A program made the position numbers and the translations under genes. The notes below the pieces were generated by a model, which was given only the letters and a program-made list of their open reading frames with translations, had not been told where the DNA came from and did no database searches. A stretch of 60,346 nt of DNA from a bacterium (lineage in GTDB: Bacteria; Cyanobacteriota; Vampirovibrionia; LMEP-6097), in assembly GCA_046080385.1 (NCBI GenBank), contig JBJTTW010000066.1, positions 1-60,346 of the forward strand, in the 5' to 3' direction. Positions 14,260 through 58,772 of this stretch are shown here, piece by piece. Every line of letters starts with the position of its first letter. The stretch's first letter is position 1.

Positions 14260-16209
14260 ATGACCAAAACCATAGCCTCTTTTGGAAAAATATTTTTAAT
14301 CTGCCTATTAGTTTTCACTTTAATCCTAACTGGCGTTTATGCTTTTTTTGAGTTTTATTTTAAAAATAACTGGGCGAAAATTGTTAAAGAGCAGATAGTT
14401 AAGAACACTGGGCTGAGTGTCGAGTTCAACCAAGTGAGATTCAGTTTTCTGAGTTTTATTAAGCTCAACCCTAGTCTAGTAATAGAAGATATTAAAGTCG
14501 GTGAGGCTTTAACTGTAGATAAATTTTATATAGAAGCGAAGTTAAAATCTTTACTGAAAAGAAAGCTCTTAGTGGAGGCACTTTTAGTCGAATCACCAGT
14601 GTTTACTTTAGTCGAGAATGAGAAAAGAGAAGTTTCTTTAAAGGGTTTAGATTTCACTAAATTACAGGAGTTACTAAAACCTAGTGAGGATGATCTAATG
14701 CGCGAAGAGATGAACACTAGAGATAAAGGTCTTAAGAGTCTTAGCTTAGATTTACTAAAAATTAAAAACGCAAATATCCTTTTTGAGCCATATAAAGGAG
14801 CTCCCCTTAGATTCAGAAATTTAAATTTAGATATAAAGGATATTTATGTCAGTGATAAACCAAGAGAGAAGCTATCTGAGATAGATTTTCATACGAATTT
14901 CTTTGATAAAGGTGATTCTAAGCTGAGTTTTAAAGGTTCACTAAAGACTATTCCTTTGGATTTAAGTAGCATTCCAGTAAAAGGATCTTTAAAAGCACAG
15001 ATTAATCTTAAAGACTTGCCTAAAGCTATGCTGGATACTTCTGCTAAGCTGCTTGCTTTTAACGGTTCGCAGAAGCATGTAGATCTTAATGCTAGTTTAC
15101 GCGGTGATATTTTAAAAACTCTGTATGGCTCTGGTACTCTTACTTTAAATGATTTTAGAATAGGTGCGGCTGAAAGAAACCTTTTAAAGATAAGCTCTAT
15201 ATTAAATTTAAATACGGCTATGAGTTTAATAAAAAATCCTAATCTACAGTTTAATGTCAGTAAGGGTTCTATGAAGATAGAGAGTGTAGATAAAAATAAA
15301 AATGCTACGGGGAATTTAAATTTCACTTTAAATACTAATGTAGATTTAATTAGCTTTGCTATGCAAGTCAGTTCTACTGGAGCTTTGAGTGGTCTTAGAA
15401 TTCATGAAGTTTTACATGCTTTTGATCCGAATTTTAAAGCACCTATTGAAGGAACTTTCCAGATACCTCAGTATAGGCTTAGTTTTAGTGGTAAGACTCC
15501 AGAGCAACAGTCTAGGAGCCTTATAGCTAACGGTAATTTTAAATTTACTGATATTAATATTCCGATGATATTAGATCTGAAAAAGAAAAAAGATAAATAT
15601 ATTAAATTCTTACCTATAGACACTACTGGTATAGATAAAGCTTTAGAAAGGAATTTCCTTGCAGCTAGCTCTGATTTCTCCGTTGCGAGCAAGCTTATGC
15701 AGATGAATAATCTTGTAGCTGAAAGTAAATATGCGACTTTAAAAGGTAGTGGTAGCTCAAGTTTTAAAGGTCTTTTAAATTTTGATTTAAATTTAACTGT
15801 GCCAGAAAGGCTTATGATGGCATTTAATGTTCATGGCGAATCTAAAAAACCTAAAGTGAAAATAAAAGATTTTCAACTGATCGGAAATCAGCCTTTAGCA
15901 TTACCGAAGGATTTAGGACTAAAAATTACTCGTGAGCCTGTAGCTAAGGCAGTTACGGAGAGAGTAGATAAAGCTGTTAATAAAGTAAATACCAAGCTTG
16001 ACTCTATTCCTCTTACGGATGAGACTAAAGCTAAGGCGAAAAAGAGTATTAATAAGCTTTTAGATTTAGGAGCTAAATATGGGGTTTACACTAAGCCAGC
16101 CCAGGATCCAGTTCCTGCACCTGCGCCAGTTTCTATGCCTAGTACTCCTGTAACCGATACCAGTTTGAGTAGTACTGCTGTGCCAGCGGAGATACTAGTT
16201 ACTCCTTGA
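14260..16209 (+). CDS. AsmA-family envelope protein (N-terminal TM, C-terminal Pro-rich tail)
   Basis: Start moved to ATG 14260 (MTKTIASFGKIFLICLLVFTLILTGVYAF) because the ORF-track start at 14182 lies inside the tRNA. The N-terminal region is AsmA-like. Confidence 0.5.
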   Translation: MTKTIASFGKIFLICLLVFTLILTGVYAFFEFYFKNNWAKIVKEQIVKNTGLSVEFNQVRFSFLSFIKLNPSLVIEDIKVGEALTVDKFYIEAKLKSLLKRKLLVEALLVESPVFTLVENEKREVSLKGLDFTKLQELLKPSEDDLMREEMNTRDKGLKSLSLDLLKIKNANILFEPYKGAPLRFRNLNLDIKDIYVSDKPREKLSEIDFHTNFFDKGDSKLSFKGSLKTIPLDLSSIPVKGSLKAQINLKDLPKAMLDTSAKLLAFNGSQKHVDLNASLRGDILKTLYGSGTLTLNDFRIGAAERNLLKISSILNLNTAMSLIKNPNLQFNVSKGSMKIESVDKNKNATGNLNFTLNTNVDLISFAMQVSSTGALSGLRIHEVLHAFDPNFKAPIEGTFQIPQYRLSFSGKTPEQQSRSLIANGNFKFTDINIPMILDLKKKKDKYIKFLPIDTTGIDKALERNFLAASSDFSVASKLMQMNNLVAESKYATLKGSGSSSFKGLLNFDLNLTVPERLMMAFNVHGESKKPKVKIKDFQLIGNQPLALPKDLGLKITREPVAKAVTERVDKAVNKVNTKLDSIPLTDETKAKAKKSINKLLDLGAKYGVYTKPAQDPVPAPAPVSMPSTPVTDTSLSSTAVPAEILVTP

Positions 16210-16654
16210 ATTCATTCGTTCGGCTACACGCCCTGCTCGAATGCTGACTAAAATACTGCTCAAGAATAATAGCAGCAGCATGCATATCTATAAGTCCTTT
16301 ATTTTTTTCAGTAAGATGAACACCCATATCTAAAAGCCTTTCTTTAGCTGCACTACTAGTCAGTATTTCATCTTCAAAGCATATATCTAAATTAGAAAAC
16401 CTTTCCCGAATCAGCTCTGTAAAGCTTTCTACTTTAAGAGTCTGCTCGCTCTTATTTCCGTCTCTGTGTTTAGGAAGACCGATTACTAGTTTAATAACTT
16501 CATATTCTTTCATCAATGACTCAAGGGTTTTTATAAGTTCAGCTTTAAGAACGGTTTTATAAGGTCTGATGCCTAACCCAAGAATGTCACTAGTGGCTAT
16601 GCCTACACGTTTTTCACCTATGTCTAAAGCTACGATTTGTTCCATGTTTTTCAA
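16199..16654 (-). CDS. ruvX: Holliday-junction resolvase-like nuclease YqgF/RuvX with a repeat-derived C-terminal tail
   Basis: IVALDIGEKRVGIATSD, ...EDEILTSSAAKE... and AAAIILEQYF. The last ~14 aa (SSRACSRTNEFKE) are encoded by a family-1 repeat fragment. Confidence 0.9.
   Translation of the reverse strand: MKNMEQIVALDIGEKRVGIATSDILGLGIRPYKTVLKAELIKTLESLMKEYEVIKLVIGLPKHRDGNKSEQTLKVESFTELIRERFSNLDICFEDEILTSSAAKERLLDMGVHLTEKNKGLIDMHAAAIILEQYFSQHSSRACSRTNEFKE
16205..16232 (-). repeat. Family-1 (NAEIG element) right-end fragment
   Basis: cttgaattcattcgttcggctacacgcc matches gaacttgttcgttcggctatacgcc (46897-46922) and the ArgJ copies. Confidence 0.7.
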
Positions 16655-16682
16655 TTCTATTTTAAAAATCGCTGCACTTTGC

Positions 16683-17549
16683 CTATAAGTCTCTTTTATT
16701 AAAGCTTTGAAAATGAAATAATAGCACCGTGCTTGCAGCTAGAACGTTTAAGCTCTCCACTTTAGAACTAATCGGAATACTAAGGGTTATGTCACAAGCA
16801 GAGAAAGCTTTTTCGCTTAGACCTTTTCCTTCATTCCCCATCATTAAAATTATTTTTTCATGGCTTTCAGGTTTAAAATCATAATATGCATGTTTGGCTC
16901 TAGGAGAGGTCGCAACTAAAGTTATTTTTTCTTGACTGTCGAAATTCATTTTTAATTTTAAAAATTCTTCTAAATTTATCTCATGGAATTTTACATGAAA
17001 CACAGCTCCAGCACTAGCTCTAATTAATTTAGGATTATAAATATCCACGCAGTTATCTAAGAAAATATTCTCACAGCCACTTGCTAGGGCAGTTCTAATA
17101 ATGCCACCTAAATTACCAGGGTCTTGAAGGTTTTCGCAATATAGGCTAACTTTCTCCAAATTAGGTAGGTGATTACTTAAAGGAAAATCAGTTTCCATTT
17201 TGTTAATAGAAGACTGTTGCTGAAATGATTTTTTAGAAAATATAGCTAGTGATTCTTGCGGTGTTTCAGTGCTGGCTATCTTTTTCATCAGCCCCTCTGG
17301 AATTGAAAATATTTTCTTGGTCTTACTCGCAGCAGTTTTTTGAAAAGTTTCTTCTAGCTCAATACTATTCTGTGATTCTTCTTCAAGGATATAAAGATAC
17401 TTAAGGTTCAAATCAGCTGCCATAGCCTCATTTATTAGTTTAAAACCTTCGACTATAAACAGATTTTCCTTGTCTCGATTCTTCTTCTCCAAGAGAGACT
17501 TAGCGAGTTTAATAAACTGATTAGTGTCACTGTTTAATTTAGCGGGCAT
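16683..17549 (-). CDS. TrmH/SpoU-family RNA 2'-O-methyltransferase (RlmB-like)
   Basis: PGNLGGIIRTALASG, MGNEGKGLS and ESLNVLAASTVLLFH. Confidence 0.9.
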   Translation of the reverse strand: MPAKLNSDTNQFIKLAKSLLEKKNRDKENLFIVEGFKLINEAMAADLNLKYLYILEEESQNSIELEETFQKTAASKTKKIFSIPEGLMKKIASTETPQESLAIFSKKSFQQQSSINKMETDFPLSNHLPNLEKVSLYCENLQDPGNLGGIIRTALASGCENIFLDNCVDIYNPKLIRASAGAVFHVKFHEINLEEFLKLKMNFDSQEKITLVATSPRAKHAYYDFKPESHEKIILMMGNEGKGLSEKAFSACDITLSIPISSKVESLNVLAASTVLLFHFQSFNKRDL

Positions 17550-17551
17550 CA

Positions 17552-17592
17552 GTCCTCCTCAGCGTTGAACTTGTTGGTTCAGCTACACGCCC
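17552..17592 (-). repeat. Family-1 right-end fragment filling the whole intergenic gap and supplying the SD
   Basis: gtcctcctcagcgttgaacttgttggttcagctacacgccc. The minus strand reads ...gctGAGGAGGactgATG for the TrmH-family gene. Confidence 0.75.
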
Positions 17593-18028: not shown

Positions 18029-19267
18029 TTATGCTGCTAGAGCTATTGACAAAGCTGTATAAAAGCCGAGAATCTGATCGTGAGTGTGTTTACTACTGAT
18101 GCATATTCTCAATCGGGCGATTTTTACAGTCGGTGGTCTGATGCTTGTGCAGATAAAACCTTTTTCTAGAAGCTTGTTACTAACAGTAAGGCACTTATCT
18201 ATTTCTTGAAATTGTATAGTGAATATTGGGCTGCCGAAATTTGTCCAGAAGAATTTGTTTTCACTATTTAGGTCATTTTTGGCTTTAAGATTACTGAGTA
18301 GCGAATCTAAGTATGTAATATTACTGAAAAGCTTTTGGCGAAGATCATTTCCATGAATGATCTTTTTGATATTATGCTGAGCGATTTTCATTAATAAAGG
18401 AGAACTCGCTGTGGAATAGACGTAAGTTCGTGCTTTATTGCGCAAGAAGTCAATTAGTGAAGATGATCCAGAGATATAACCGCCTTCAAGACCAATCGCT
18501 TTAGACAGTGTCCCCATTTGAATAAGGTTGCTGAAATCTTCTTGGGGATTCTTTTCTTTATATTCATTGATAAGACCTGCTCCAGATTGTCCATATATGC
18601 CAGTGCTGTGAGCTTCATCTATATATATAAATGATGAATATTCGTCAGCGATGGATTTTAAATCAGCCAAGGGGGCAAGGTCACCATCCATGCTAAATAC
18701 GGACTCTGTGATGATAAAAGAATTGGTATATTTATAACGATATTTTTGGATGAGTCTCCTCAATTCCTGAGCGTCATTATGTGCAAAAATATATTTTCTT
18801 GCATTGTTAATCCTGAGAGCATCCCACATACAGGAGTGTGCAAGTTCATCAATGAAGACAACATCCTCTTTATCTATTAATGCGGATAAAGCGCCAAGAT
18901 TTGCTAAATAACCACTACTGAAAATGATAGTATCTTCAGAGCTTTTCCAGTTTGAGATACAGTCCTCAAGCTCTTTATGCTCTAGGTGCGTGCCAGTTGT
19001 CAACCTTGAACCACCACTGCCAAAAGGTACTTGCATTAATTGGGGGTGTGGCGAAACTCCAATTTCCGTTAAATTATTGACTGAGTAATTTGTAGCATTG
19101 ATATTTAATATTTCCGAAATGAAGCATTCAGCAAGCCCAAGATAGTCATTACTTGAGAAATTTATTAGTTCTTTCTGTCTTGAAAGTCGCTTATTAATTG
19201 AATTTTGATCTCTGTATAAATTTTGTTTTTTAAGATCATTGATTTTGTCTTGAAAAATCCTGTCCAT
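18029..19267 (-). CDS. bioF: PLP-dependent alpha-oxoamine synthase (8-amino-7-oxononanoate synthase-like)
   Basis: FSSNDYLGL, DEAHSTGIYGQSGAG and GTLSKAIG (PLP lysine). The family call is secure. Specificity (BioF, KBL or SPT) is not. Confidence 0.8.
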   Translation of the reverse strand: MDRIFQDKINDLKKQNLYRDQNSINKRLSRQKELINFSSNDYLGLAECFISEILNINATNYSVNNLTEIGVSPHPQLMQVPFGSGGSRLTTGTHLEHKELEDCISNWKSSEDTIIFSSGYLANLGALSALIDKEDVVFIDELAHSCMWDALRINNARKYIFAHNDAQELRRLIQKYRYKYTNSFIITESVFSMDGDLAPLADLKSIADEYSSFIYIDEAHSTGIYGQSGAGLINEYKEKNPQEDFSNLIQMGTLSKAIGLEGGYISGSSSLIDFLRNKARTYVYSTASSPLLMKIAQHNIKKIIHGNDLRQKLFSNITYLDSLLSNLKAKNDLNSENKFFWTNFGSPIFTIQFQEIDKCLTVSNKLLEKGFICTSIRPPTVKIARLRICISSKHTHDQILGFYTALSIALAA

Positions 19268-19332: not shown

Positions 19333-20124
19333 CTAGTCTTGATTTTCAAACAGAAAGCTTATATTTTCTGTAAAAGCTTTAAGGTATTTAGTAATTAGTT
19401 CTTCTGCTTGAATGTTATCATCAAACTCAATAGTAATGCAGTCCAGTTTCTTGTCTTTAGAGTAAGAGCCAAGTGAGCCAGGGGTTGGATAGCCAATGTC
19501 TTCAGTAAATTCCAATCCTGTATCGCGTGCAAGTTTTATAGCAAAGTCTTTATGAGTACCGAGCCCGTCATAATTTACTTGAGGAGCATTCGGAAAGCGA
19601 ATGAAGTGGTTAGTATGAAAGCTAATAATTAAATCAAAATCAAGCGCTTCTATCAATTTAGTTAATAGTTGAGTTTCAATTTCACTTGCAGGAAAGTCAC
19701 CAGGATAATAGGGATTTTTTTCACCATCTATTCTAAATTTCGCACTCTGCCAATTTTGGCTTGGCATATTACGATTTAAATCTACGTCGTGATGATTATG
19801 GCGAGTGAAATTTTTTAAACCATGTGGATTTAATATTGGTATTGCGATGATTCTAAAATCTTTAAGTTCATCTAAGTTCAGTTCTAGATCATTAATTTGG
19901 ATGGCATTGCTCTCTGCTTCATGCGCGGTTAGTCCAAGTAGCTCGGATACTGAGAATATTCCTATTGATTCTTTGTTGAGAGCAACACTGGTATGCAGTG
20001 AAACTCCATTCTCTGCGCTTTTGTGAGAGTCATCCGTGGATAAAATTTGAGAAAGAAGATTGCTCAAAAAAGCAGAACTCTGAGGTTCTACTCCATGCGT
20101 TCCCGCGATTAACAACAGTCTCAT
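19333..20124 (-). CDS. M14-family zinc carboxypeptidase/amidase (MpaA-like)
   Basis: AGTHGVEPQS (HxxE), ILNPHGL...DVDLNRNMP and ISFHTN. Confidence 0.7.
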   Translation of the reverse strand: MRLLLIAGTHGVEPQSSAFLSNLLSQILSTDDSHKSAENGVSLHTSVALNKESIGIFSVSELLGLTAHEAESNAIQINDLELNLDELKDFRIIAIPILNPHGLKNFTRHNHHDVDLNRNMPSQNWQSAKFRIDGEKNPYYPGDFPASEIETQLLTKLIEALDFDLIISFHTNHFIRFPNAPQVNYDGLGTHKDFAIKLARDTGLEFTEDIGYPTPGSLGSYSKDKKLDCITIEFDDNIQAEELITKYLKAFTENISFLFENQD

Positions 20125-23747: not shown

Positions 23748-23970
23748 GAGACCACTGCACAACGTGCAGTTTCAAGGCTGAGGAGGACGAATGACCGCAG
23801 TGTACTCAAGGTACATGATACCATTCTGGAAAATTCTTTTGAGTCCAAGCAGTCCGAAACTAGGACTGCGCAAGGGACATATAAAAGTCTTTTTCAGATT
23901 AAAATGGTATTTTGGTATGAGGATCATGAGGAGGACGAAAACGCAGAAAATGGAGTTGTGCAGTAGTCTC
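23748..23970 (+). mobile_element. Family-1 (NAEIG element) long variant, ~223 bp, with terminal inverted repeats
   Basis: Left end gagaccactgcacaac and right end gttgtgcagtagtctc (15/16 as inverted repeat). ctcaggaag occurs on both flanks (23740-23748 and 23968-23976). Contains modules C (gtttcaaggctgaggaggacgaatgaccgcagtg), B (tgaggatcatgaggagga) and A (cgaaaacgcagaaaatggag). Confidence 0.8.
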
Positions 23971-25867
23971 AGGAAGTGTATTCTGCATTAATCTTCACAT
24001 AGTCATAACTTAAATCATTCCCAAGAAAATGTGAAGAATTTAGAACCTCGTCTGCAAGCGATGGCGTGGTCTCTTTATTGTTAACAGTTAATTGACTTTT
24101 ATTTAAACCAATAGTTATCTCTACGTGCCTTGCCTGTTTCAATCGCTTAGCGAGTTTATCTAAATCCTCTCCGAAAAGCTGTGCAGAAGCATTTTTAAAA
24201 ACACAGCTATCCAATAGATTTACTTCAATTAAGCTCATGTCTAAGCCTTCTAGCAGAGCTTCTTCCCGTGCGAAAGCTGCAACGATACGTCCCCAATTCG
24301 GGTCATTACCAAAGATAGCAGTTTTAACTAACATCGAATTGATAATATTTTTGCCAATTTTTTGAAGATTTAATGGACTGATGGGTAAATGTTCTAGCTT
24401 TAAGTCTATGATTTTAGTTAAACCTTCACCATCTGCAATAATTTGATAACAGAGTCCTTTGCAGACCTCTTCAAGAGATGATTTGAATTCTTCTCGGCTA
24501 ATTTCTTCCCCGCTAAAATTATTTAAGAGGAGAACCATGTCATTAGTACTAGTATCACCATCTACACTAATGTTATTAAAAGTAGCATTGACGATTTCAC
24601 TTAGAGTCTCTTGCATAAATTTCGTAGCTTTTTCATTATTCAGCCCAGAGATTTTTAGATCCGTAATAATAAAACCAAGCATAGTTGCCATATTCGGAGC
24701 TATCATCCCAGAGCCTTTACAGATGCCAAGAAATCGCTGTTTCTTATCCTGACTGATTTTCGGGGCGGTATCTGTGGTCATAATCGCTCTAGCGAAATCA
24801 TAGACAGCTTCATAGGATTCAGAATTTCTCTTTTCTTCTATTTTTTCGGTGAAAACTTTTTTAGCGTGACTGAGGTCAAGTTTGCGTCCTATAACCCCTG
24901 TACTTGCCGACAGCACCTTTGGACACTGCTCCCAGACTCCAATTTCATCGTTTTCGTCGTCCTCATGATCCTCATGTACCCGCAGTACACTGCGGTCATT
25001 CGTCCTCCTTAGCCTTGAACTTGCGCGCCTATGAGCAGCGTCTTGTGTGGACTGCTCCCAGGCTCCAATTTCAGAGCTATTTGCAATAAAATTTTCAAGC
25101 AGTTTCCTCAAATCGTTATCGGCTTTAATCCCATCTTCTCCAGTGCAGCAGTTAGCATTACCAGAATTCGCGATAAGACCATAGACGGTTTTAGATTTTA
25201 ATTTTATGTTCTGCTCTATGCATATAGCTTTCATCGCATTAGTCGTAAAGGTACCAGCCCATGAACATGGTTTCTCTGAAAATAAAACTGCCATATCCAA
25301 GTTATTCGTTTTAGATGCAGCTTTAATTCCCGAATGAAAACCCGTCAGAGAAAAGTATTTAGGCAGCGACGGTATATAGGCTTTAGCTAAAAGGGTGTAG
25401 CCTTCTGCACCGTAGTAAAGCGCTAGAGGCATTAAGGCGTAACTGTAAGCCTGTACGCCTTGTGAAATTAGTAAGGCTTTTTCTTCTTCAGAGGGTACTT
25501 CACCATCGGCAAGAGCAGCCACTTTAATCCCTAGGCACTGTTGCGGAACTCCAATTTCTGCGTTTTCGTCGTCCTCATGATCCTCATGCACACCTAGTGC
25601 ACTGCGGTCATTCGTCCTCCTCAGCCTTGAACTTGTTCGTTCGGCAGCAGTGCCCTCTAAAGACTGTTGCGGAACTCCAATTTCCGCGTTTTCGTTGTTA
25701 AGCTGGGATTTATACAATTCAGTAACAGGGATAAAACCTATATTTCTAGGACTAGAGCCTGTTAAATTAAGATGATCTATAATCCAGAGTTCTTTTCCGG
25801 CTAGCTCTTCTGTAAGTGGAATTACAGGAATAAAAAGTTCTTTGATTTTCATCTTTCCATGAGCCAT
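23969..25867 (-). CDS. argJ: Glutamate N-acetyltransferase / amino-acid acetyltransferase ArgJ, enlarged (632 aa) by repeat insertions and an extra N-terminal region
   Basis: GFHSGIKAA...FTTN, STGVIGRKL, autoprocessing site PNMATMLGFIITD, GDTSTNDMV, NDPNWGRI and C-terminus YVKINAEYTS*. An alternative start at Met146 (ATG 25430-25432) is possible. Confidence 0.85.
   Translation of the reverse strand: MAHGKMKIKELFIPVIPLTEELAGKELWIIDHLNLTGSSPRNIGFIPVTELYKSQLNNENAEIGVPQQSLEGTAAERTSSRLRRTNDRSALGVHEDHEDDENAEIGVPQQCLGIKVAALADGEVPSEEEKALLISQGVQAYSYALMPLALYYGAEGYTLLAKAYIPSLPKYFSLTGFHSGIKAASKTNNLDMAVLFSEKPCSWAGTFTTNAMKAICIEQNIKLKSKTVYGLIANSGNANCCTGEDGIKADNDLRKLLENFIANSSEIGAWEQSTQDAAHRRASSRLRRTNDRSVLRVHEDHEDDENDEIGVWEQCPKVLSASTGVIGRKLDLSHAKKVFTEKIEEKRNSESYEAVYDFARAIMTTDTAPKISQDKKQRFLGICKGSGMIAPNMATMLGFIITDLKISGLNNEKATKFMQETLSEIVNATFNNISVDGDTSTNDMVLLLNNFSGEEISREEFKSSLEEVCKGLCYQIIADGEGLTKIIDLKLEHLPISPLNLQKIGKNIINSMLVKTAIFGNDPNWGRIVAAFAREEALLEGLDMSLIEVNLLDSCVFKNASAQLFGEDLDKLAKRLKQARHVEITIGLNKSQLTVNNKETTPSLADEVLNSSHFLGNDLSYDYVKINAEYTS
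24921..25074 (-). mobile_element. Family-1 composite insertion in the argJ core domain (full element plus adjacent solo left end)
   Basis: ggacactgctcccagactccaatttcatcgttttcgtcgtcctcatgatcctcatg...cattcgtcctccttagccttgaacttg..., then ggactgctcccaggctccaatttc. Translated as SEIGAWEQSTQDAAHRRASSRLRRTNDRSVLRVHEDHEDDENDEIGVWEQC. Confidence 0.85.
25534..25693 (-). mobile_element. Family-1 composite insertion in the argJ 5' region (full ~122-bp element plus adjacent solo left end)
   Basis: TIRs ggcactgttgcggaac (25534-25549) and gttcggcagcagtgcc (~25639-25654). The solo copy actgttgcggaactccaatttccgcgttttcg is at 25662-25693. Translated as ENAEIGVPQQSLEGTAAERTSSRLRRTNDRSALGVHEDHEDDENAEIGVPQQC. 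Confidence 0.85.
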
Positions 25868-33007: not shown

Positions 33008-33040
33008 GGGACTGTAGCCAAACTCCAATTTCTGCATTTC
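33008..33040 (-). repeat. Family-1 solo left end, intergenic
   Basis: gggactgtagccaaactccaatttctgcatttc, starting 4 nt after the stop of the preceding ORF. Confidence 0.75.
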
Positions 33041-33095
33041 TTCCCCTGACTGTTTTTAACTTTTTAATTCGGCTATTCCTAGTAAAATAAAGCTT

Positions 33096-40286: not shown

Positions 40287-40328
40287 CATTCGCTAAAAAA
40301 TGCTCAAAATAGCATTTTCATTATTTCC

Positions 40329-44564: not shown

Positions 44565-44570
44565 TTACAG

Positions 44571-46089: not shown

Positions 46090-47070
46090 TTAAATCAAAG
46101 CCCACTTATTTAAATAGTTTTCATATAGAGCTAATCCCTGTATATGTTCATCGGTGAAATCATAATTTAAGGTCTGAAAATAACTACTTAAAATATTCTT
46201 CTGCAAATTAGTCCTAGAATGAGTTATATCTATTATTTCATCCAGATCTTGGTTAAGCCCCATGGCTTTTGCTGTAAGGATAAGTTCTTGTAAAAATTTT
46301 TCCTTCTGAGGATTTAGTTTATGAGCCCATAGCCCAAAGACCATTGGTAAGCCATTCGATAAATCGAACCATTCTTCACCAAGATCATAAATATATTGGT
46401 AATTTATAAGCTTGGCAACACTGGCCTGTAGCGGAGCTCCAATTTCTGCATTTTCGTTCGCTTCGAGTAAAGCTTTATCACCGATTAATAGTTTATTAGG
46501 TAAACCTTCTCCCTTACCAGAAAATTTAATAAACTCAATATTATTAATATCTAAAGTATATTTTTCAGCTAACAGTATTTTTAATAAACCTACGGAACTT
46601 GCACTTTCTTCGCTTATATATATCTTAGGCTTTAAACCCTTTTGTTGTAAGCTTTTTAATTCTTTTAAATTTTGAGTAGAGAAGAATAATACGCTTTTAA
46701 CTTTGCCAAAGGCACTAATAGAGATTCGTTTAAGTAATTTACAGTGTTCTTTTATCTTTAGATAAGCAAAGCTTGAAATAGGAGCTGCGTCTATTAGACC
46801 TTCTGTAAAGAGTTTATTTAAATGACTTGGTGCACCAGTACTAATCTTTATTTTAAAAGTATCTTCGGCGTGTAGCCGAACTCCAATTTCTGCGTTTGAA
46901 CTTGTTCGTTCGGCTATACGCCTATTTTCAGGTACACGCCCCCTGGATTGAATAATTTTATTTAAAGGGTAGTTAAAAATTTCGCAGTTAATATATGAAA
47001 TTTCGCCAAGTTTAATTAAGGGAGAACCATCCGAAGAATCTCTGCTTATCTGTGTTTCAGTAATGTTCAT
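46090..47070 (-). CDS. mqnA: Chorismate dehydratase MqnA (futalosine pathway), with two repeat insertions
   Basis: LGEISYINCEIFNYPL, GLIDAAPISSFAYL, LLIGDKAL and YIYDLGEEWFDLSNGLPMVFGLWA. Confidence 0.8.
   Translation of the reverse strand: MNITETQISRDSSDGSPLIKLGEISYINCEIFNYPLNKIIQSRGRVPENRRIAERTSSNAEIGVRLHAEDTFKIKISTGAPSHLNKLFTEGLIDAAPISSFAYLKIKEHCKLLKRISISAFGKVKSVLFFSTQNLKELKSLQQKGLKPKIYISEESASSVGLLKILLAEKYTLDINNIEFIKFSGKGEGLPNKLLIGDKALLEANENAEIGAPLQASVAKLINYQYIYDLGEEWFDLSNGLPMVFGLWAHKLNPQKEKFLQELILTAKAMGLNQDLDEIIDITHSRTNLQKNILSSYFQTLNYDFTDEHIQGLALYENYLNKWALI
46419..46461 (-). repeat. Family-1 solo left end, in frame in mqnA
   Basis: cactggcctgtagcggagctccaatttctgcattttcgttcgc, translated ANENAEIGAPLQAS. 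Confidence 0.8.
46867..46922 (-). mobile_element. Family-1 minimal complete element (56 bp) in frame in mqnA
   Basis: TIRs ggcgtgtagccgaac and gttcggctatacgcc (14/15) flank tccaatttctgcgtttgaacttgttc. Translated IAERTSSNAEIGVRLHA. Confidence 0.85.
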
Positions 47071-48781
47071 ATTTAGCTGCTATTGGCATTTTTCTACCAT
47101 ATCCAAAGGTTAATTCTTTAACTTTAATAATAGGTGGATATTGTTGTCTTTTATATTCGTTTCTATCTATCATGCCTAAGATGCTGAGTACGGTTGGTTC
47201 ATAGAAGCCCATTTCGACTATTTCTGTAAGTGATTTTCGCTTTTCAACGTAATTCATAATAATCGCATCTAGCTTAGGATAAGGCGGTAAGCTATCTTCA
47301 TCTTTTTGATTTTCTCTTAGTTCAGCTGTTGGAGCTTTTTTGCAGATGTTATCGGGAATGGTGAGTCCTACATCTAGCGAAACAGTATTTTGGTTGATGT
47401 AATCTACTAGAGCATAGACTTCTGTTTTCAATAGATCACCTATGGGGGCTATGCTACCGCAGGTATCACCATAAATAGTGGCATAACCTACAGCTAGTTC
47501 AGATTTATTGCTGGTAGCTAATAATAGTGAACCCTCGGTATTAGAAAGAGCCAAGAGAATATTTGCTCTGAGCCTCGCTTGCACATTCTCGCTTGCGAGT
47601 TTACTTATTTTGGGCACAGTCTCCAACATGGTTTCATGAAGTTCTTTTATGCTAATGCTACGGTAGTCTATGCCAAGATTTTTTGCAAGCTGCTGAGCGT
47701 CTTTTAGGCTTTCATTACTTGTAAATTTAGAAGCTAACATTATGCCGCTGACATTCTCTTTGCCGAGGGCTTGAACTGCTAAATAGGCGACTAAAGCGGA
47801 ATCTATGCCACCAGAAAGACCCAGTATTGCTTTTTTAAAACCACATTTTTTGAAATAATCTTGTATGCCGAGCTTGAGAGCGGAGAGTATTTCGCCATAG
47901 GCTTTTATATCGCTGATAAAGAGTTCAGTATTGTTTTCTTGGACATCTAGCAGAACTCCAATCTCTGCGTTTTTCTTCTCTTCGCTTATGAATGCTTTTT
48001 CTTCATTCTTCATAAGAGATTCGATATCTATTTCCATAAGATCTTCAATAAAAGAGCGTCCCTGTCTTGTTACATAACCATGTTTATTTACTACGAGTGA
48101 AGCACCGTCAAAGACTAGGTGGTCATTAGAACCTACTTGGTTACAGTAGAGTATCGGCACTTGATGTTTTTCTGCGGCGTGAGTAATAAGGCTCTGTCTA
48201 AGTTTAATTTTATTGATGTAATAAGGAGAGGCAGAGCAGTTAATGATTAATTTAGCTCCGAGCTTAGTTAATTTAGCGATGGGATCTATATCGTAGAGAT
48301 TTTTAAGTTCATCTGCCCATAGATCCTCACAGATACTGATTCCTAGCTTATATCCACCGAAATCTAAAGTTTTAAATTCTTTGTTTGATTCGAAATATCT
48401 TGTCTCATCGAATACATCGTAATTAGGGAGTAGAGTTTTTCTAAATACATCAGCTACTTTATTCCAAGTGATAAAAAATACGGAGTTGAAAAGCTCTTTA
48501 CCAGTAGTATCGTTAGAACTTACTCCTCCCACTAATATACCTAAATTCGCAGGACAGATCTCAGAGAGCTGTTTTAAATAGTCACCTTGTCTAATTAATA
48601 ATTCTTTTTTAAACAGTAAGTCTCTTGCAGGATAACCAATTAGACTCAGCTCTGGAAATATTATTAATTTAGGATTAGAATCCCTTTTACTATTAACTAT
48701 ATTAATAATATCTAGGTGCTTCTCGAAATTAGTTCTAAGGTCACCAACTACAGGGTTAATTTGTGCTAAAAAGGCTTTCAT
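47057..48781 (-). CDS. nadE: Glutamine-dependent NAD+ synthetase (CN-hydrolase plus NAD synthase domains)
   Basis: FPELSLIGYP, GISICEDLW and GLSGGIDSALVAYLA. Confidence 0.95.
   Translation of the reverse strand: MKAFLAQINPVVGDLRTNFEKHLDIINIVNSKRDSNPKLIIFPELSLIGYPARDLLFKKELLIRQGDYLKQLSEICPANLGILVGGVSSNDTTGKELFNSVFFITWNKVADVFRKTLLPNYDVFDETRYFESNKEFKTLDFGGYKLGISICEDLWADELKNLYDIDPIAKLTKLGAKLIINCSASPYYINKIKLRQSLITHAAEKHQVPILYCNQVGSNDHLVFDGASLVVNKHGYVTRQGRSFIEDLMEIDIESLMKNEEKAFISEEKKNAEIGVLLDVQENNTELFISDIKAYGEILSALKLGIQDYFKKCGFKKAILGLSGGIDSALVAYLAVQALGKENVSGIMLASKFTSNESLKDAQQLAKNLGIDYRSISIKELHETMLETVPKISKLASENVQARLRANILLALSNTEGSLLLATSNKSELAVGYATIYGDTCGSIAPIGDLLKTEVYALVDYINQNTVSLDVGLTIPDNICKKAPTAELRENQKDEDSLPPYPKLDAIIMNYVEKRKSLTEIVEMGFYEPTVLSILGMIDRNEYKRQQYPPIIKVKELTFGYGRKMPIAAKYEHY
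47941..47974 (-). repeat. Family-1 solo left end, in frame in the nadE interdomain linker
   Basis: ggacatctagcagaactccaatctctgcgttttt, translated KNAEIGVLLDVQ. Confidence 0.75.
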
Positions 48782-52363: not shown

Positions 52364-52401
52364 ACACGAAAAAGCAAAAATAGGAGATTGGCAAAAGTGC
52401 C

Positions 52402-54492: not shown

Positions 54493-54710
54493 TTTAGAGG
54501 CTGATGTATAGTGGGATTGCTCACGAAGGCGCAAGTAAGTCCACAAGCTGAGAACCACGAAAACGCAGAAATTGGAGTCTAGTAGCAGTGTCTTAGAGGC
54601 TGATTTGCAATCGGGCTGCTCACAAAGGTACAGGTTCAAGGCACTGTTCGCAAGCGTGCAAGTTTAAGACTAGGGGGATGAATGTCCGCAAAATGTAGTC
54701 GAGTATTCAC
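54493..54710. repeat. Mosaic of family-1 modules and a local ~100-bp duplication
   Basis: ttagaggctgat...gctcac(g/a)aagg occurs twice (54493 and 54592). Module A cgaaaacgcagaaattggagtctagtagcagtgtc is at 54558-54592. A degenerate module C (ggttcaaggcactgttcgcaag...gatgaatgtccgcaaaatgtag) follows. Confidence 0.65.
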
Positions 54711-55317: not shown

Positions 55318-55350
55318 AAAACGCAGAAATTGGAGCCTCAAAATAGTGTC
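55318..55350 (+). repeat. Family-1 solo end, intergenic
   Basis: aaaacgcagaaattggagcctcaaaatagtgtc, 10 nt after the small ORF stop. Confidence 0.75.
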
Positions 55351-55397
55351 ACTTTGCTGCTCTTCTGGGGCTATTTTTGGATTGAGATTACTGTGAG

Positions 55398-57371: not shown

Positions 57372-57634
57372 TCAGAGCCCTCCCTCGGAATGTTGACACT
57401 GACTCATCCCCGTGAGGACAGAAAGGCCCAATTATGCAATTTATCTTGAAAGAAGTCATGTGAGGAGCTTAGTCAAGTATTACGTAATATATTATATACA
57501 AGTAAGAGATAATTTACTGGAAAATGTAATACGGAATATAAATAAATATTAATCAAAGTAATATCAAATGAAAAAACTCTAATATCAGCTTATTTAGTTT
57601 TACATGAGAGACTAAAGGTAATAAGATAAAATTA

Positions 57635-58153
57635 ATGCCTGCTAAAAAAGCTCTTTATCCAGGAAGTTTCGATCCTTTTACTTTAGGGCATCTAGACGTG
57701 CTTGCAAGAGCGGTGGAACTTTTTGACTGCGTCGAAATTGCTATAGCTAGTAATTCTAGAAAAAAATCTATTTTAGATGCTAAAGAGAGGGAGTCTTTAG
57801 TTAAAACGGCGACGGCTAATTTGCCAAATGTTAAGGTCTCAATAGTTGAAGGTTTGGTTATAGATTATGCAAGAGCGAATGATTATAGATTGCTATTGAG
57901 AGGAATTCGTGCTGCTAATGATTTTGAGCAGGAGTTAGAGATGTCACAAATAAACAGATCACTGTCCCTAAAAGGACATAAGGATTCTATTGAGACTGTT
58001 TTTTTGATGACTAGCCCAGAATATTCTTTTATAAGGGCAAGCAGGGTGTGGGAATTGCTAGAATTGGGGGGAGATGTAAGCACTCTCGTTCCAGATTGTG
58101 TGAGTAAATATTTGGAGGGAAGAAATATTGGATATTTTCAGCAAACTAGATGA
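57635..58153 (+). CDS. coaD: Phosphopantetheine adenylyltransferase
   Basis: ALYPGSFDPFTLGHLDVLARA, LLRGIRAANDFEQELEM. Confidence 0.95.
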   Translation: MPAKKALYPGSFDPFTLGHLDVLARAVELFDCVEIAIASNSRKKSILDAKERESLVKTATANLPNVKVSIVEGLVIDYARANDYRLLLRGIRAANDFEQELEMSQINRSLSLKGHKDSIETVFLMTSPEYSFIRASRVWELLELGGDVSTLVPDCVSKYLEGRNIGYFQQTR

Positions 58154-58730
58154 AATCGGCGAATATATAGAGCAGGCTAAGAACATACCTATGATTAATC
58201 AGAAAATGATTGATCCAGAGTACTTGATGAGAGCCTTTGAAGATCTTTATGCGACTATCCCAGAGGAAATAAAAGAGGCTAGGCAGCTTATCGAGAAGAG
58301 GGATAAGGAACTTACTGAAGCGAGGAAGCAGGCTGATGATCTTCTGACTAGGACTAAGCAAGAATGCGAAACTATGCTTATTAGGGCTAAAGATCAAGCA
58401 GAGAAGCTTTTAGATGAAAGCCAAATAAAAAGATCAGCGGAACATGAGGCGAAAAGTTTATTCAATGAATGTAGTGAACATGCAAAACGATTAACTAAAG
58501 ACGCTGAATCAGATGCTGAGACTATTAGAATGCAGGCAATAGAAAAGGCTCAGAGATTTGAAGAGCAGGCCTTACTTAAAGCTAGAAGGATTAAAGAAGA
58601 TGCTGATAATTATGCACAGCAGATTCTTAGTTACATAGAAAGTGATGTGGTGAGAAAGATAGATGAACTTAATGCTAAGGGTAAAAGTTTTTTCTCAGAC
58701 TTAAAAGAGAAAGATTTACATCTGTCATAA
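58128..58730 (+). CDS. Coiled-coil protein (Glu/Lys/Ala-rich), function unknown
   Basis: ORF overlapping the coaD 3' end by 26 nt. Heptad-rich sequence EARQLIEKRDKELTEARKQADDLL.... Confidence 0.45.
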   Translation: MDIFSKLDEIGEYIEQAKNIPMINQKMIDPEYLMRAFEDLYATIPEEIKEARQLIEKRDKELTEARKQADDLLTRTKQECETMLIRAKDQAEKLLDESQIKRSAEHEAKSLFNECSEHAKRLTKDAESDAETIRMQAIEKAQRFEEQALLKARRIKEDADNYAQQILSYIESDVVRKIDELNAKGKSFFSDLKEKDLHLS

Positions 58731-58734
58731 AGGT

Positions 58735-58772
58735 GGCGTATAGTCAAACGAACAGGTTCTTGGCAACACGCC
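58735..58772 (+). repeat. Family-1 TIR-only mini copy
   Basis: ggcgtatagtcaaac-gaacag-gttcttggcaacacgcc. The ends resemble the 46867-46922 TIRs and the module A core is absent. Confidence 0.5.

What the first reader, a model, noticed from the sequence alone, without database searches (positions are those of the whole stretch)
16205..58772. Modular MITE-like repeat family inserted in frame into six housekeeping enzymes ('NAEIG' signature)
A ~34-nt module occurs at 15 or more places in 60 kb, on either strand. Its rough consensus is GAAAACGCAGAAATTGGAGTTCGGCTRCAGYGCC.

Ten or more copies lie inside otherwise well-conserved CDSs:
- ArgJ: ENAEIGVPQQ twice, SEIGAWEQ and ENDEIGVWEQ.
- FolK-RimI: ENAEIEVRQRC.
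- QueA: GNAEIGACEQ and ENAEIGVRLHA.
- NagZ-like: ENAENGVVQES.
- MqnA: SNAEIGVRLHA and ENAEIGAPLQA.
- NadE: KNAEIGVLLDV.

Every genic copy keeps the host frame open, is co-oriented with its gene, and is read in the same one of three element frames. None of the six frames of the core contains a stop, so stop avoidance alone does not explain this bias.

The same nucleotide module also occurs in non-coding DNA (33008-33040, 54558-54592, 55318-55350, 23931-23970). It is therefore a DNA-level repeat, not a protein motif.

Longer versions add module B (CATGAGGATCATGAGGA, read as HEDHED) and module C (GTTCAAGGCTGAGGAGGACGAATGACCGCAGTG, read as SSRLRRTNDRS). They are bounded by ~15-nt inverted termini. 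No transposase is visible in the window.

In-frame palindromic elements are known from Rickettsia (RPEs). I do not recognise this sequence family.
Basis: partly seen in the sequence, partly recalled or inferred. Interest (0 to 1): 0.8.

Follow-up and report, generated by a model that had tools for sequence, protein, structure and literature searches.

The report
In-frame miniature transposons riddling melainabacterial genes
A 121-bp non-autonomous transposon family has spread so densely through a lineage of non-photosynthetic cyanobacteria that about one gene in five in this window carries a copy, always read through in one frame as extra peptide. This is a second example of the "selfish DNA inside proteins" known from Rickettsia, and its ends and target duplications are clear enough to study mechanism.

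Summary
The 16-mer core gives 19 hits in the window against 0.75 expected. A census of the window plus 83 related loci finds 165 copies.

The full unit is a 121-bp MITE with 16-bp terminal inverted repeats and a 5-bp target-site duplication. Together that is 126 bp, or 42 codons.

The family occurs in at least six sister genomes of Caenarcaniphilales (Vampirovibrionia) that are 88-96% identical, with many filled/empty sites.

All 88 copies internal to ORFs are sense and in one frame. Non-genic copies show no orientation bias, so the bias comes from selection. The full element is open only in frames s1 and a1, and all antisense frames encode more hydrophobic peptide than s1.

ArgJ orthologues lack or vary the inserts. 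AlphaFold places both inserts in low-confidence loops.

No transposase was found, no Rfam family matched, and no publication on this family was found.

One oddity: the interior is nearly invariant while the TIR tips are hypervariable but compensatory.

Verdict: a new family that behaves like Rickettsia palindromic elements (RPEs).

The parts
25534..25654 (-). Complete 121-bp element (L-TIR, module C, internal hairpin, module B, module A, R-TIR) in frame in ArgJ insert site 1. Flanked by TAGAG/TAGGG (4/5 TSD).
   Evidence: profile E=1.9e-38
25660..25693 (-). Upstream right-end solo (A-R') exactly 126 nt from the next A module. With 25534-25654 it forms the "tandem" form of period 121+5.
24922..25078 (-). 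ArgJ insert site 2: a degenerate A'-R' followed by a near-complete element. Absent in orthologue P0040/L085 and present as a solo in P0041/L087.
23748..23970 (+). Intergenic composite copy with TIR GAGACC.../...GGTCTC and an unrelated 98-nt nested insert (23819-23916) in the internal hairpin loop. 5-bp TSD (TTCCT on the ArgJ strand). Abuts the ArgJ stop codon in antisense. The site is cleanly empty in L085 and L087; L084 carries an unrelated ~50-nt sequence there.
6080..6124 (-). Short L-A-R hairpin form, in frame in the DUF255/thioredoxin-domain ORF 5709-7862. Lies within the 6.1-kb near-collinear (93% identical) match to REEB446 (L072), so probably conserved there; presence not checked directly.
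29899..29943 (-). Solo (B'-A-R), 36-nt in-frame insert in HPPK-GNAT. The same site holds a full 121-bp element in L087 and is empty in L084.
41021..41054 (-). Solo in QueA (ENAEIGVRLHA).
41165..41215 (-). B'-A-R remnant in QueA (DHEAGGNAEIGACEQ).
42944..42977 (-). Solo in the GH3 glycosidase (ENAENGVVQES).
46422..46458 (-). Solo in MqnA (ENAEIGAPLQA).
46866..46924 (-). Internally deleted mini-element with both TIRs (L-C'-A-R, about 59 nt) in MqnA.
47941..47974 (-). Solo in NadE (KNAEIGVLLDV).
19042..19066 (-). Truncated A'-R remnant in the aminotransferase ORF 18029-19267. L085 has a 65-nt two-ended element with TSD GATTA/AATTA at this site; L084 is empty.
19993..20024 (-). Degenerate solo in the M14 peptidase-like ORF 19333-20124.
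17537..17590 (-). 54-nt insert absent in L084 and L085: a left-end fragment (L + module C; profile match 17542-17591) plus a 5-bp target repeat. The fragment's GAGGAGGA Shine-Dalgarno-like box and ATG now start the SpoU methylase ORF (16683-17549).
16204..16235 (-). Left-end remnant (L + start of C) at the 3' end of RuvX. L085 keeps A+R at the same site; L084 is empty.
33008..33041 (-). Intergenic solo, antisense to both flanking genes.
54549..54592 (+). Intergenic solo (B'-A-R).
54615..54691 (+). Two adjacent left-end (L-C) fragments in the same intergenic "graveyard".
55318..55350 (+). Intergenic solo next to the stop of ORF 55398-57371.
58734..58772 (+). L-R mini-hairpin left by deletion between AGTTC microhomologies. 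REEB446 (L043) has the 190-nt long form here.
52365..52400 (+). Doubtful, highly degenerate A-R-like stretch between ORFs.
   Evidence: E=0.29

Best explanation
This is a family of non-autonomous DNA transposons (MITEs) specific to a genus- or family-level clade of Caenarcaniphilales.

**Shown**
- The unit is 121 bp. It has 16-bp imperfect terminal inverted repeats, a near-invariant interior with an internal hairpin, a Shine-Dalgarno-like box plus ATG (module C), a (CATGAGGA)x2 box (module B) and the AACGCAGAAATTGGAG box (module A).
- It makes a 5-bp target duplication at A/T-rich sites of consensus ATNAT.
- 121 + 5 = 126 bp, so an insertion adds exactly 42 codons.
- Every copy internal to an ORF is sense and in frame s1.
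- Non-genic copies show no orientation bias.
- Full copies decay by deletion into 34-60-nt remnants, mostly right-end solos.
- Tandem forms have a period equal to element plus TSD.
- Copies are present or absent between genomes 88-96% identical.

**Inferred**
- Insertion is by a DDE-type transposase supplied in trans.
- Insertions land in all frames and both orientations. Only frame s1 survives. It is one of two open frames and encodes a very hydrophilic, probably disordered peptide (GTxAERTSSRLRRTNDRSvLxVHEDHEDDENAEIGVxxQC) that is translated as a surface loop.
- Occasional copies are co-opted. One example supplies a new ribosome-binding site and start codon for the SpoU methylase gene.
For: **Repeat is non-random:**

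**Anatomy and fixed length:** 46 distinct copies are exactly 121 nt.

**TSD:** 19 of 29 non-tandem full copies have at least 4/5 identical 5-nt flanks, against 2.8 expected. No signal appears at registers 3, 4, 6 or 7. Clean filled/empty pairs: 126 nt in L056 vs L003; window 23748-23970 vs L085/L087; window 17537-17590; L085 vs L084.

**Frame and orientation:**
- 88 copies are s1, against 13 others in ORFs of at least 150 codons.
- All 13 others lie at ORF ends, either upstream of the real start or in the last ~15 codons.
- Copies are spread evenly along host proteins.
- The full element is open only in s1 and a1. GRAVY is -1.27 for s1 and -0.19 for a1; the antisense 34-mer frames are +0.3 to +1.1.
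- Non-genic copies between co-directional genes: 13 sense, 15 antisense. Convergent 18 vs divergent 2.

**Solos are remnants:**
- They show no TSD signal.
- None of the internal genic solos is in s2 or s3, although both frames are open.
- Solo vs full element at the same site, with the same right junction, in HPPK-GNAT, the aminotransferase and ArgJ.

**Inserts are lineage-specific:** in the ArgJ alignment both sites are empty in remote orthologues and in some close ones, with graded sizes.

**Inserts sit in loops:** AlphaFold2 gives pTM 0.76, with pLDDT<50 at residues 57-109 and 267-313, which coincide closely with the two inserts (about 58-113 and 266-315); other <50 stretches are short.

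**Not a widespread protein motif:** 82 hits in 1.84 billion representative proteins.

**Not an artefact:** copies occur at orthologous sites in independent NCBI, JGI and ENA assemblies.
Against: - No transposase or autonomous copy was found in the window, in long indels, next to module C, or next to TIR-like sequences. Trans-mobilisation is therefore inferred only.
- The TIR tips are hypervariable and only their pairing is conserved. This is atypical for ends recognised by a sequence-specific DDE transposase.
- Translation of the inserts is inferred from frame conservation. No RNA or peptide data exist.
- The density of in-frame copies per coding bp is about 0.11-0.23 of the intergenic density. 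That is near the 1/6 expected if every s1 insertion survived, which is hard to reconcile with purely random insertion plus selection.
- The right-end bias of remnants and their sharp left edge (46 of 89 within 0-3 nt of GAAAAC) are unexplained.
Confidence: 0.8

Rival explanations
1. A structure-recognised single-strand element of the REP/REPIN-RAYT or IS200/IS605-PATE type. Here an HUH tyrosine transposase would recognise a hairpin rather than a TIR sequence.
For: - The terminal helix is conserved as a structure, not as a sequence. 14 of 16 pairs carry double changes, 93% of cells are paired, and 0 of 500 shuffles reach the observed value.
- There are 26 distinct tips among 50 stems. On the top strand, G.T mismatches outnumber A.C by 37 to 19 (p=0.02).
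- One subfamily carries GTAG in its stem.
- The RNA fold has z=-5.3 and the DNA fold z=-2.5.
Against: - A 5-bp target duplication is present. HUH Y1 transposases make none.
- No fixed 4-5-nt target lies 5' of the element.
- More than half of the copies are inside genes, whereas REP/REPINs are extragenic.
- No RAYT or TnpA domain was found in the window ORFs scanned.
- There is no replication-strand association genome-wide.
Confidence: 0.1
2. The elements are removed before or during translation (intron-like excision, RNA processing and religation, or ribosomal bypassing). Under this view the host proteins do not contain the peptides.
For: - The element folds into a very stable hairpin (RNA -45 kcal/mol).
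- Element plus one TSD copy is exactly 126 nt, so precise removal would also restore the frame.
- No expression data exist.
Against: - If the elements were removed, nothing would keep them open. Yet 88 of 88 internal copies are in one of the only two open frames of the full element, and always the same one.
- All deletion derivatives checked inside genes are multiples of 3: 27, 36, 42, 81, 84, 126, 141 and 213 nt.
- No Rfam ribozyme or intron family matched.
- Decayed copies that could no longer fold persist in frame, for example in ArgJ P0042.
Confidence: 0.05
3. A conserved protein module (a low-complexity linker or motif) spread by duplication or recombination at the protein-coding level, not a mobile DNA element.
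For: - The same peptide occurs in many proteins, always in the same frame.
- Period-126 tandem arrays occur in some genes.
Against: - 64 copies lie outside ORFs, in both orientations.
- TIRs and TSDs are present.
- Presence/absence varies at orthologous sites.
- Remote orthologues lack the segments.
- Nucleotide identity of the interior is about 95-100% across unrelated hosts.
- Only 82 proteins in 1.84 billion representatives carry the peptide.
Confidence: 0.02
4. A domesticated cis-regulatory element (translation re-initiation or coupling cassette, mRNA stabiliser or terminator) whose genic copies are incidental.
For: - Module C carries GAGGAGGA plus an ATG. At window 17549 this ATG is the start codon of the SpoU methylase ORF after an insertion that cut off the ancestral TTG start.
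- Several copies end exactly at a downstream ATG.
- Non-genic copies favour convergent 3' regions, 18 vs 2.
Against: - Most copies are internal to ORFs or are remnants lacking module C.
- Intergenic orientation is unbiased.
- Copies decay rather than being maintained.
Confidence: 0.1
5. An assembly or binning artefact, or pseudogenised hosts.
For: All of the genomes are MAGs.
Against: - The same insertions occur at orthologous sites in independent assemblies from NCBI, JGI and ENA.
- Host ORFs are intact, with catalytic motifs conserved and a confident fold.
Confidence: 0.01

Closest known systems
Rickettsia palindromic elements (RPE-1 to RPE-10; Ogata et al. 2000, 2002, as summarised in PMC10969869 and PMC1779305)
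   Same: - Palindromic repeats of 100-150 bp, abundant in both intergenic and protein-coding regions.
- Inserted in frame in unrelated housekeeping genes.
- Encode a conserved peptide judged compatible with the host fold.
- Ancient, lineage-specific proliferation.
- No associated transposase is known.
   Different: - Unrelated host phylum: Cyanobacteriota/Vampirovibrionia, which by habitat are free-living or predatory rather than obligate intracellular. Sequence relatedness to RPEs was not tested.
- This family has clear 16-bp TIRs and a demonstrable 5-bp TSD. No RPE target duplication or mechanism is given in the two papers read here (PMC10969869, PMC1779305); I did not check the primary RPE papers.
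- Element plus TSD is an exact multiple of 3.
- Density appears higher here: about 1 copy per 3.5 kb, with 7-11 of about 46 genes hit in this window.
- 100% frame and orientation fidelity was measured on 88 copies.
- The TIR tips are hypervariable but compensatory.
Ordinary bacterial MITEs, including Tn3-derived TIMEs (5-bp TSD), Correia/CREE of Neisseria, and QMITE1 of Coxiella (PMC5896051)
   Same: - Short, non-autonomous, bounded by TIRs and flanked by a TSD.
- Occasionally overlap or extend ORFs.
- Can carry promoters or ribosome-binding sites.
- Internally deleted derivatives occur.
   Different: - In ordinary MITEs the TIRs are the conserved part and the interior drifts. Here it is the reverse.
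- The TIRs are 16 bp, not the ~38-bp GGGG... repeats of the Tn3 family (recalled from memory).
- Most bacterial MITEs are overwhelmingly intergenic. QMITE1 has 2-3-nt direct repeats and is 300-400 bp long (PMC5896051).
REP/REPIN elements mobilised by RAYT transposases (PMC3733652)
   Same: A hairpin whose stem covaries; high copy number; preference for 3' ends of convergent genes among the non-genic copies.
   Different: REPs are extragenic, 20-40 bp, tagged by GTAG or CGTC, and lack a TSD. This element makes a 5-bp TSD, and over half of its copies are inside genes.
Mycobacterial interspersed repetitive units (MIRUs) (from memory)
   Same: Small repeats oriented with operons that carry stop/start signals and can couple translation of flanking genes. 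The SpoU case here is comparable.
   Different: MIRUs sit between genes, not inside them, and are tandem minisatellites without TIRs or TSDs.

Membership tests
MITE (miniature inverted-repeat transposable element) | Short (<~500 bp), high copy number, no transposase ORF | tested here: met
   The unit is 121 bp. 165 copies occur in 643 kb. The full element has stops in 4 of 6 frames and no ORF longer than 40 codons.
MITE (miniature inverted-repeat transposable element) | Terminal inverted repeats | tested here: met
   A 16-bp terminal helix, 93% paired across 40 copies.
MITE (miniature inverted-repeat transposable element) | Target-site duplication of fixed length | tested here: met
   5 bp: 19 of 29 copies have at least 4/5 flank identity, against 2.8 expected, and only at register 5. 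Empty sites were also seen.
MITE (miniature inverted-repeat transposable element) | Presence/absence polymorphism between close relatives (mobility) | tested here: met
   Multiple filled/empty orthologous sites between genomes 88-96% identical.
MITE (miniature inverted-repeat transposable element) | A related autonomous IS with the same ends in the genome | tested here: inconclusive
   None was found in the window or the 88 loci held. Whole genomes could not be scanned.
Rickettsia palindromic elements (RPE) | Sequence membership in RPE-1..10 and occurrence in Rickettsiales | not tested
   The host is Caenarcaniphilales. No RPE sequence was available for comparison. It is filed as "works like an RPE", not as a member.
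Rickettsia palindromic elements (RPE) | In-frame insertion in unrelated housekeeping genes with a conserved element-encoded peptide | tested here: met
   88 of 88 internal copies are in frame s1. Hosts include ArgJ, QueA, NadE, MqnA, HPPK-GNAT, GH3 and DUF255.
Rickettsia palindromic elements (RPE) | Insert sites compatible with the host fold (surface loops) | tested here: met
   In the ArgJ AlphaFold2 model the two inserts coincide with the two long low-confidence coil segments between confident core elements. This was tested on one host only.
REP/REPIN-RAYT | Extragenic location | tested here: not met
   53% of copies are internal to ORFs.
REP/REPIN-RAYT | No target duplication; conserved GTAG/CGTC tag | tested here: not met
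   A 5-bp TSD is present. GTAG occurs in only one tip subfamily.
IS200/IS605-derived PATE | Subterminal hairpins without TIRs, no TSD, insertion 3' of a fixed tetra- or pentanucleotide, replication-strand bias | tested here: not met
   TIRs and a TSD are present. Host genes show no GC3-skew difference from non-hosts (p=0.78).
Tn3-family derived TIME | 5-bp TSD | tested here: met
Tn3-family derived TIME | ~38-bp IRs starting GGGG with an inner ...TAAG motif on both ends; Tn3-type transposase in the genome | tested here: inconclusive
   Inverted identity covers only 16 bp. Tips start GGG, GGC or GAG. The left subterminal GAACGAAC...TCAAGG vaguely resembles the Tn3 inner motif (recalled from memory), but the right end does not. 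The transposase was not searched genome-wide.
Self-splicing intron / known ribozyme or RNA family | Match to a curated covariance model | tested here: not met
   Only tRNAs reach the gathering score in the window. Three loci searched at E<=1 gave nothing relevant.

The most novel reading that the evidence does not exclude
The element may be an evolved specialist in colonising coding sequence. Three features would make this so.

1. Its ends would be recognised as a top-strand hairpin plus conserved subterminal boxes, not as a TIR sequence. That would explain the hypervariable but compensatory tips and the excess of G.T over A.C mismatches.
2. It would insert with an orientation-coupled preference for A-T-purine-A-T targets. 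On coding strands these fall mainly in the [xAT][NAT] Asp/Asn codon phase of surface loops.
3. Its length (121+5 = 42 codons; long form 202+5 = 69 codons), its purine-rich top strand and its stop-free hydrophilic frame would have been shaped so that a large share of genic insertions is harmless.

Under this reading the sense and frame bias is partly an insertion bias, not only a survivorship bias. It would also account for in-frame copy density approaching the 1/6 ceiling, and for antisense copies sitting exactly on stop codons.
Probability: 0.25. Interest if true: 0.8.

Novelty: new member of a known kind. Interest (0 to 1): 0.62.

Why it matters
- **A second instance.** The 2024 MITE review (PMC10969869) singles out RPEs as taking in-frame fusion to an unusually high frequency, and the 2002 paper title it cites calls protein-coding palindromes unique to Rickettsia. 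An independent, denser case in a free-living or predatory lineage of non-photosynthetic cyanobacteria shows the phenomenon is not tied to reductive intracellular genomes.
- **A tractable mechanism.** This family has clean ends, a measurable TSD and many filled/empty sites among sister genomes. That makes mechanism and rates approachable, and it offers a natural deep-mutational experiment on where 12-42-residue insertions are tolerated in conserved enzymes (ArgJ, QueA, NadE, MqnA and others).
- **Practical consequences.**
  - The elements inflate protein lengths in MAG annotations.
  - They generate spurious 44-71-aa "hypothetical proteins".
  - They can mislead orthology and domain calls.
  - They provide a lineage marker that would have caught a MAG labelled "Proteobacteria".
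- **Co-option.** The SpoU case shows a selfish element rescuing its own insertion by donating a ribosome-binding site and start codon.

Tried and rejected
1. **Known RNA family or ribozyme.** Rfam gave nothing beyond tRNAs.
2. **Replication-strand (ssDNA) insertion bias.**
   - All 7 window hosts are on the minus strand, and 12 of 14 further host sites on the same contig share the strand of the first.
   - GC3 skew marks the plus strand as the leading strand.
   - But across 63 host and 440 non-host ORFs the GC3 skew does not differ (p=0.78).
   - I dropped the idea. The local concordance stays unexplained.
3. **Solos as an independently mobile mini-element.** Rejected: they show no TSD signal, none is in the open s2 or s3 frames, and solo and full element occupy the same sites.
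4. **Selection for shortening inside genes as the source of solos.** Not supported: solos make up 56% of genic and 49% of intergenic copies.
5. **Autonomous partner.** Not found in any of these places:
   - Long indels between sister genomes hold ordinary genes.
   - The ATG of module C opens no long ORF, except where a host gene follows.
   - TIR-like sequences are not found around other cargo.
   - Pfam shows no transposase, RAYT or RT domain in the window ORFs scanned.
6. **Protein-level census with the 41-aa peptide.**
   - The word-indexed search returned only 35 mostly tiny ORFs.
   - The exhaustive search of representatives returned 82.
   - This is useful for showing rarity, not for listing hosts.
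7. **Spread outside the clade.**
   - The hit in a Zixibacteria MAG matches only the seed 20-mer. In the Pyrinomonadaceae MAG locus nothing matched the 34-mer even at up to 12 mismatches.
   - One IMG/VR contig has genuine in-frame solos, but it may be misclassified host DNA.
8. **Terminal bias of insert positions in proteins.** None: the distribution is roughly uniform.
9. **Tn3-family resemblance of the ends.** Too weak to claim.

Full report

Yes.
- The core AACGCAGAAATTGGAG with up to 3 mismatches occurs 19 times in the 60-kb window. Dinucleotide-preserving shuffles give 0.75 on average and 3 at most.
- The repeat finder independently recovers families of 11-13 copies, plus modules B and C.
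- Pfam confirms the hosts as ArgJ, HPPK-GNAT, QueA, a GH3 glycosidase, MqnA and glutamine-dependent NadE.
- A profile search adds fragments touching RuvX, a SpoU methylase, an aminotransferase and an M14 peptidase.
- No transposase domain was found in the 30 window ORFs scanned with Pfam. Pfam annotation of the syntenic locus L084 also shows none.

**2. Where the window comes from**

- Almost all come from five MAGs of Vampirovibrionia/Melainabacteria, order Caenarcaniphilales. One of them is mislabelled Proteobacteria.
- The single hits in a Zixibacteria and a Pyrinomonadaceae MAG appear to be chance matches. In the Zixibacteria MAG only the seed 20-mer matches, and in the Pyrinomonadaceae locus nothing matched the 34-mer.
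- The window is the whole of a 60,346-bp NCBI MAG contig.
- It is about 93% identical to MAG REEB446 where the two overlap.
- The relatives are 88-96% identical to one another at orthologous loci. This made filled/empty comparisons possible.
- I fetched three further syntenic loci through ArgJ orthologues.

**3. Anatomy**

Aligning all copies by their sharp right end shows one unit and its derivatives.

The unit:
- It is exactly 121 bp in 46 distinct copies.
- Its layout is L-TIR (16 nt), then GAACAAGTTCAAGGCTGAGGAGGACGAATGACCGCAG (module C, holding a Shine-Dalgarno-like GAGGAGGA and an ATG).
- Next comes a 5-bp-stem hairpin with a hypervariable loop, then CATGAGGATCATGAGGACGAC (module B).
- It ends with GAAAACGCAGAAATTGGAGTT (module A) and the R-TIR (16 nt).

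The target duplication:
- With boundaries fixed at GGGCG/GGCAC/GGGAC...CGCCC/GTGCC/GTCCC, 19 of 29 non-tandem full copies have at least 4 of 5 identical flanking bases.
- Random pairing predicts 2.8. No signal appears at registers 3, 4, 6 or 7.
- Empty sites confirm it. Examples are a clean 126-nt difference between L056 and L003 and window 23748-23970 against L085/L087.
- The element therefore makes a 5-bp target duplication. 121 + 5 = 126 bp is exactly 42 codons.
- The flank profile is A-T-R-A-W in both genic and non-genic copies. This points to a roughly palindromic ATNAT target with a purine-biased centre.

Derivatives:
- "Tandem" forms A-R'-5 nt-L-C-B-A-R with period 126, that is, element plus TSD.
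- L-A-R mini-hairpins of about 45 nt.
- L-R stubs.
- Long forms of about 202 nt with an 81-nt structured module nested in the internal loop. 202 + 5 is again a multiple of 3.
- Right-end solos of 34-50 nt, the commonest derivative.

**4. Solos are remnants, not the unit**

- The 89 solos show no TSD signal.
- At three sites a solo in one genome is a full, two-ended element in another, with the identical right junction. The sites are HPPK-GNAT (window vs L087, empty in L084), the aminotransferase (window vs L085, empty in L084) and ArgJ.
- At window 16204-16235 the window keeps L+C' while L085 keeps A+R of the same insertion, and L084 is empty.
- Right-end remnants outnumber left-end ones, about 13 to 4 in the unbiased window.
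- The left edge of solos clusters 0-3 nt before GAAAAC in 46 of 89 cases. I cannot explain either asymmetry.
- Solos are about equally frequent inside genes (56%) and outside them (49%). Protein-level selection for shortening is therefore not the cause.

**5. Frame and orientation**

- Among 165 copies, 101 lie in stop-to-stop ORFs of at least 150 codons. 88 are sense in frame s1 (GAA AAC GCA ...) and 13 are otherwise.
- All 13 exceptions sit at ORF ends. Either the copy lies upstream of the real start, often ending exactly at the ATG, or it supplies the last ~15 codons.
- Every copy internal to a gene is therefore in s1.
- Positions along host proteins are roughly uniform.
The full element, however, is open only in s1 and a1.
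- Because solos descend from full copies, this explains why the open s2 and s3 frames are never used.
- The missing a1 needs another cause. The purine-rich top strand encodes hydrophilic peptide in every frame (34-mer GRAVY -0.85 to -1.36; full s1 -1.27).
- The bottom strand encodes more hydrophobic, Cys/His-containing peptide (34-mer +0.3 to +1.1; full a1 -0.19).
- Outside genes orientation is unbiased: 13 sense and 15 antisense between co-directional genes.
- Non-genic copies favour convergent over divergent spacers, 18 to 2.
- The genic bias is therefore best read as survivorship.

Two observations hint that insertion itself may not be neutral.
- Antisense non-genic copies abut the stop codon of the gene reading toward the R end, within 0-2 nt in about 30 cases. 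Sense copies do not do this at the L end.
- The density of in-frame copies per coding bp is 0.11-0.23 of the intergenic density. That is close to the 1/6 ceiling (my arithmetic).

**6. Are they insertions in otherwise conserved proteins?**

- ArgJ orthologues form a length series from 632 down to about 405 residues.
- In the alignment, both ArgJ insert sites are empty in remote orthologues and in some close ones. Site 2 is empty in P0040 and site 1 is reduced to ENA in P0041. Intermediate, long-form and decayed states are also seen.
- At the DNA level the short states differ by deletions between microhomologies.
- The AlphaFold2 model built on this alignment has pTM 0.76. Its two long stretches with pLDDT below 50, residues 57-109 and 267-313, coincide closely with the two inserts; the remaining <50 stretches are short. 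The ArgJ core is confident.
- The peptide is rare in the protein universe: 82 hits among 1.84 billion cluster representatives, many of them small miscalled ORFs.

**7. An unusual conservation pattern**

- Across 40 aligned full copies, positions 17-105 are almost invariant. The outer 12 nt of both ends are hypervariable yet complementary.
- The 16-bp terminal helix is 93% paired, and 14 of its 16 pairs show changes on both sides.
- There are 111 doubly changed cells, against 33 in shuffles (0 of 500 shuffles reach this). Slid registers collapse to 25-50% pairing.
- There are 26 different tips among 50 stems. Top-strand G.T mismatches outnumber A.C by 37 to 19 (p=0.02; copies are not fully independent).
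- The internal hairpin covaries too.
- The conserved skeleton of the ends is only GGnnnTGnnnCnnAAC.
- This is the reverse of ordinary MITEs. It suggests that a hairpin plus subterminal boxes is what matters for propagation.
- Subfamily descent can inflate such statistics, so I treat structure-dependent recognition as a hypothesis.
- It sits uneasily with the 5-bp duplication, which points to a DDE-type staggered cut. I keep an HUH/RAYT-like mechanism as a minor rival.

**8. Side effects on genes**

- At window 17537-17590 a 54-nt insert (an L+C fragment plus a 5-bp target repeat), absent in two sister genomes, sits in the overlap of two genes.
- It cuts the ancestral TTG start of the SpoU methylase.
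- The element's own GAGGAGGA and ATG now open the ORF: MPAKLNSD, against the ancestral MFTKITSD.
- This is a likely case of co-option, or of rescue by a selected deletion.

**9. Comparison with the known**

- The closest analogue in behaviour is the Rickettsia palindromic elements. These are 100-150-bp palindromic repeats in intergenic and coding DNA.
- They are inserted in frame in unrelated genes, encode a conserved peptide, and have no known transposase (PMC10969869, PMC1779305).
- I file this element as working like an RPE, not as a member. The host phylum differs and no sequence comparison was possible.
- Formally it meets the defining features of a MITE (size, TIR, TSD, polymorphism), apart from an identified autonomous partner.
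- It fails the tests for REP/REPIN and for IS200/IS605-derived elements: it has a TSD, it is intragenic, and it shows no strand bias.
- It matches no Rfam family.
- Full-text searches found no paper linking Vampirovibrionia or Caenarcaniphilales with MITEs or such repeats.

**10. What I could not settle**

- The mobilising enzyme.
- Whether the peptides are really present in the proteins.
- Why right-end remnants dominate.
- Why antisense copies sit on stop codons.
- Why host genes share a strand within contigs (window 7 of 7; 12 of 14 overall), even though hosts and non-hosts have the same GC3 skew (p=0.78).

Noticed in passing
window 492-640 (+), 40145-40293 (-), 42657-42795 (-): A second, unrelated MITE-like family of about 141 nt (CTTAAGGAAGTGATGAAAAATGAAATTTTTCATCAC...GGATCCTTAAG; RNA folds of -57 to -66 kcal/mol). 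The first copy lies in frame inside the YhcG/DUF1016 nuclease ORF 253-1440 and splits its N-terminal domain match. In-frame MITEs in this genome are therefore not limited to one family.
   Followed up: partly
window 23819-23916, and long forms in L001, L018, L022, L037, L043, L061: The 5-nt loop of the element's internal hairpin is a hot spot for nested inserts. An 81-nt highly structured module makes the ~202-nt "long form", which is still a multiple of 3 with its TSD. The window copy carries an unrelated 98-nt insert.
   Followed up: partly
window 5709-48781: All seven clear host genes are on the minus strand, although the ORFs split 22 plus / 22 minus. Other contigs show the same concordance (12 of 14 further host sites). 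GC3 skew shows no link to replication strand across 63 hosts, so the pattern is unexplained.
   Followed up: yes
window 11744-12183: Three tandem copies of a 147-nt unit. Each holds the palindrome GTAAAAAAACGATTTTAGAGTATCGTTTTTTTAC (terminator-like). They sit between a 1276-aa YhdP/DUF748-like gene and a tRNA at 12227-12311.
   Followed up: no
window 44441-44566: Three 40-nt-spaced AT-rich repeats with inverted symmetry lie immediately upstream of a hipA-like ORF (44571-45752), which is followed by an HTH_3 ORF (45725-46063). They look like operator sites of a toxin-antitoxin module.
   Followed up: no
window 253-5661: A defence-like gene cluster: YhcG PDDEXK nuclease, a Schlafen AlbA_2 + HATPase_c_4 protein, and a 990-aa ResIII helicase with a C-terminal restriction endonuclease domain.
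   Followed up: no
window 23969-25867 (ArgJ) and orthologues P0001-P0060: ArgJ in this clade has a conserved N-terminal extension of about 170 residues that ordinary ~405-aa ArgJ proteins lack. The model folds it confidently. The ORF overlaps the upstream S49 peptidase gene by 19 nt.
   Followed up: partly
window 55465-58759 vs L043: This stretch is only 79.5% identical to REEB446, while both flanks are 92-93% identical. It includes a 657-aa ORF (55398-57371) with no Pfam match.
   Followed up: no
L088 (IMG/VR UViG_3300042866_002883), 3634-3667 and 3943-3976: The only "viral" contig with the pattern (14.9 kb, 34.6% GC). It carries a right-end solo at 3634-3667 that appears in frame in a 1086-aa ORF (671-3931) and a second, weaker copy at 3943-3976 near the start of the next ORF (3935-4714). 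It may be host DNA misclassified as viral, or a mobile island of the same lineage.
   Followed up: partly
L003-L077 (RFQS01...), and proteins P0121-P0155: MAG WB4_1_1465, labelled "Proteobacteria bacterium", belongs to the same Caenarcaniphilales group. Public annotations of these MAGs-71-aa "hypothetical proteins" that match the element-encoded peptide; they are probably miscalled element copies (genomic context not checked).
   Followed up: partly
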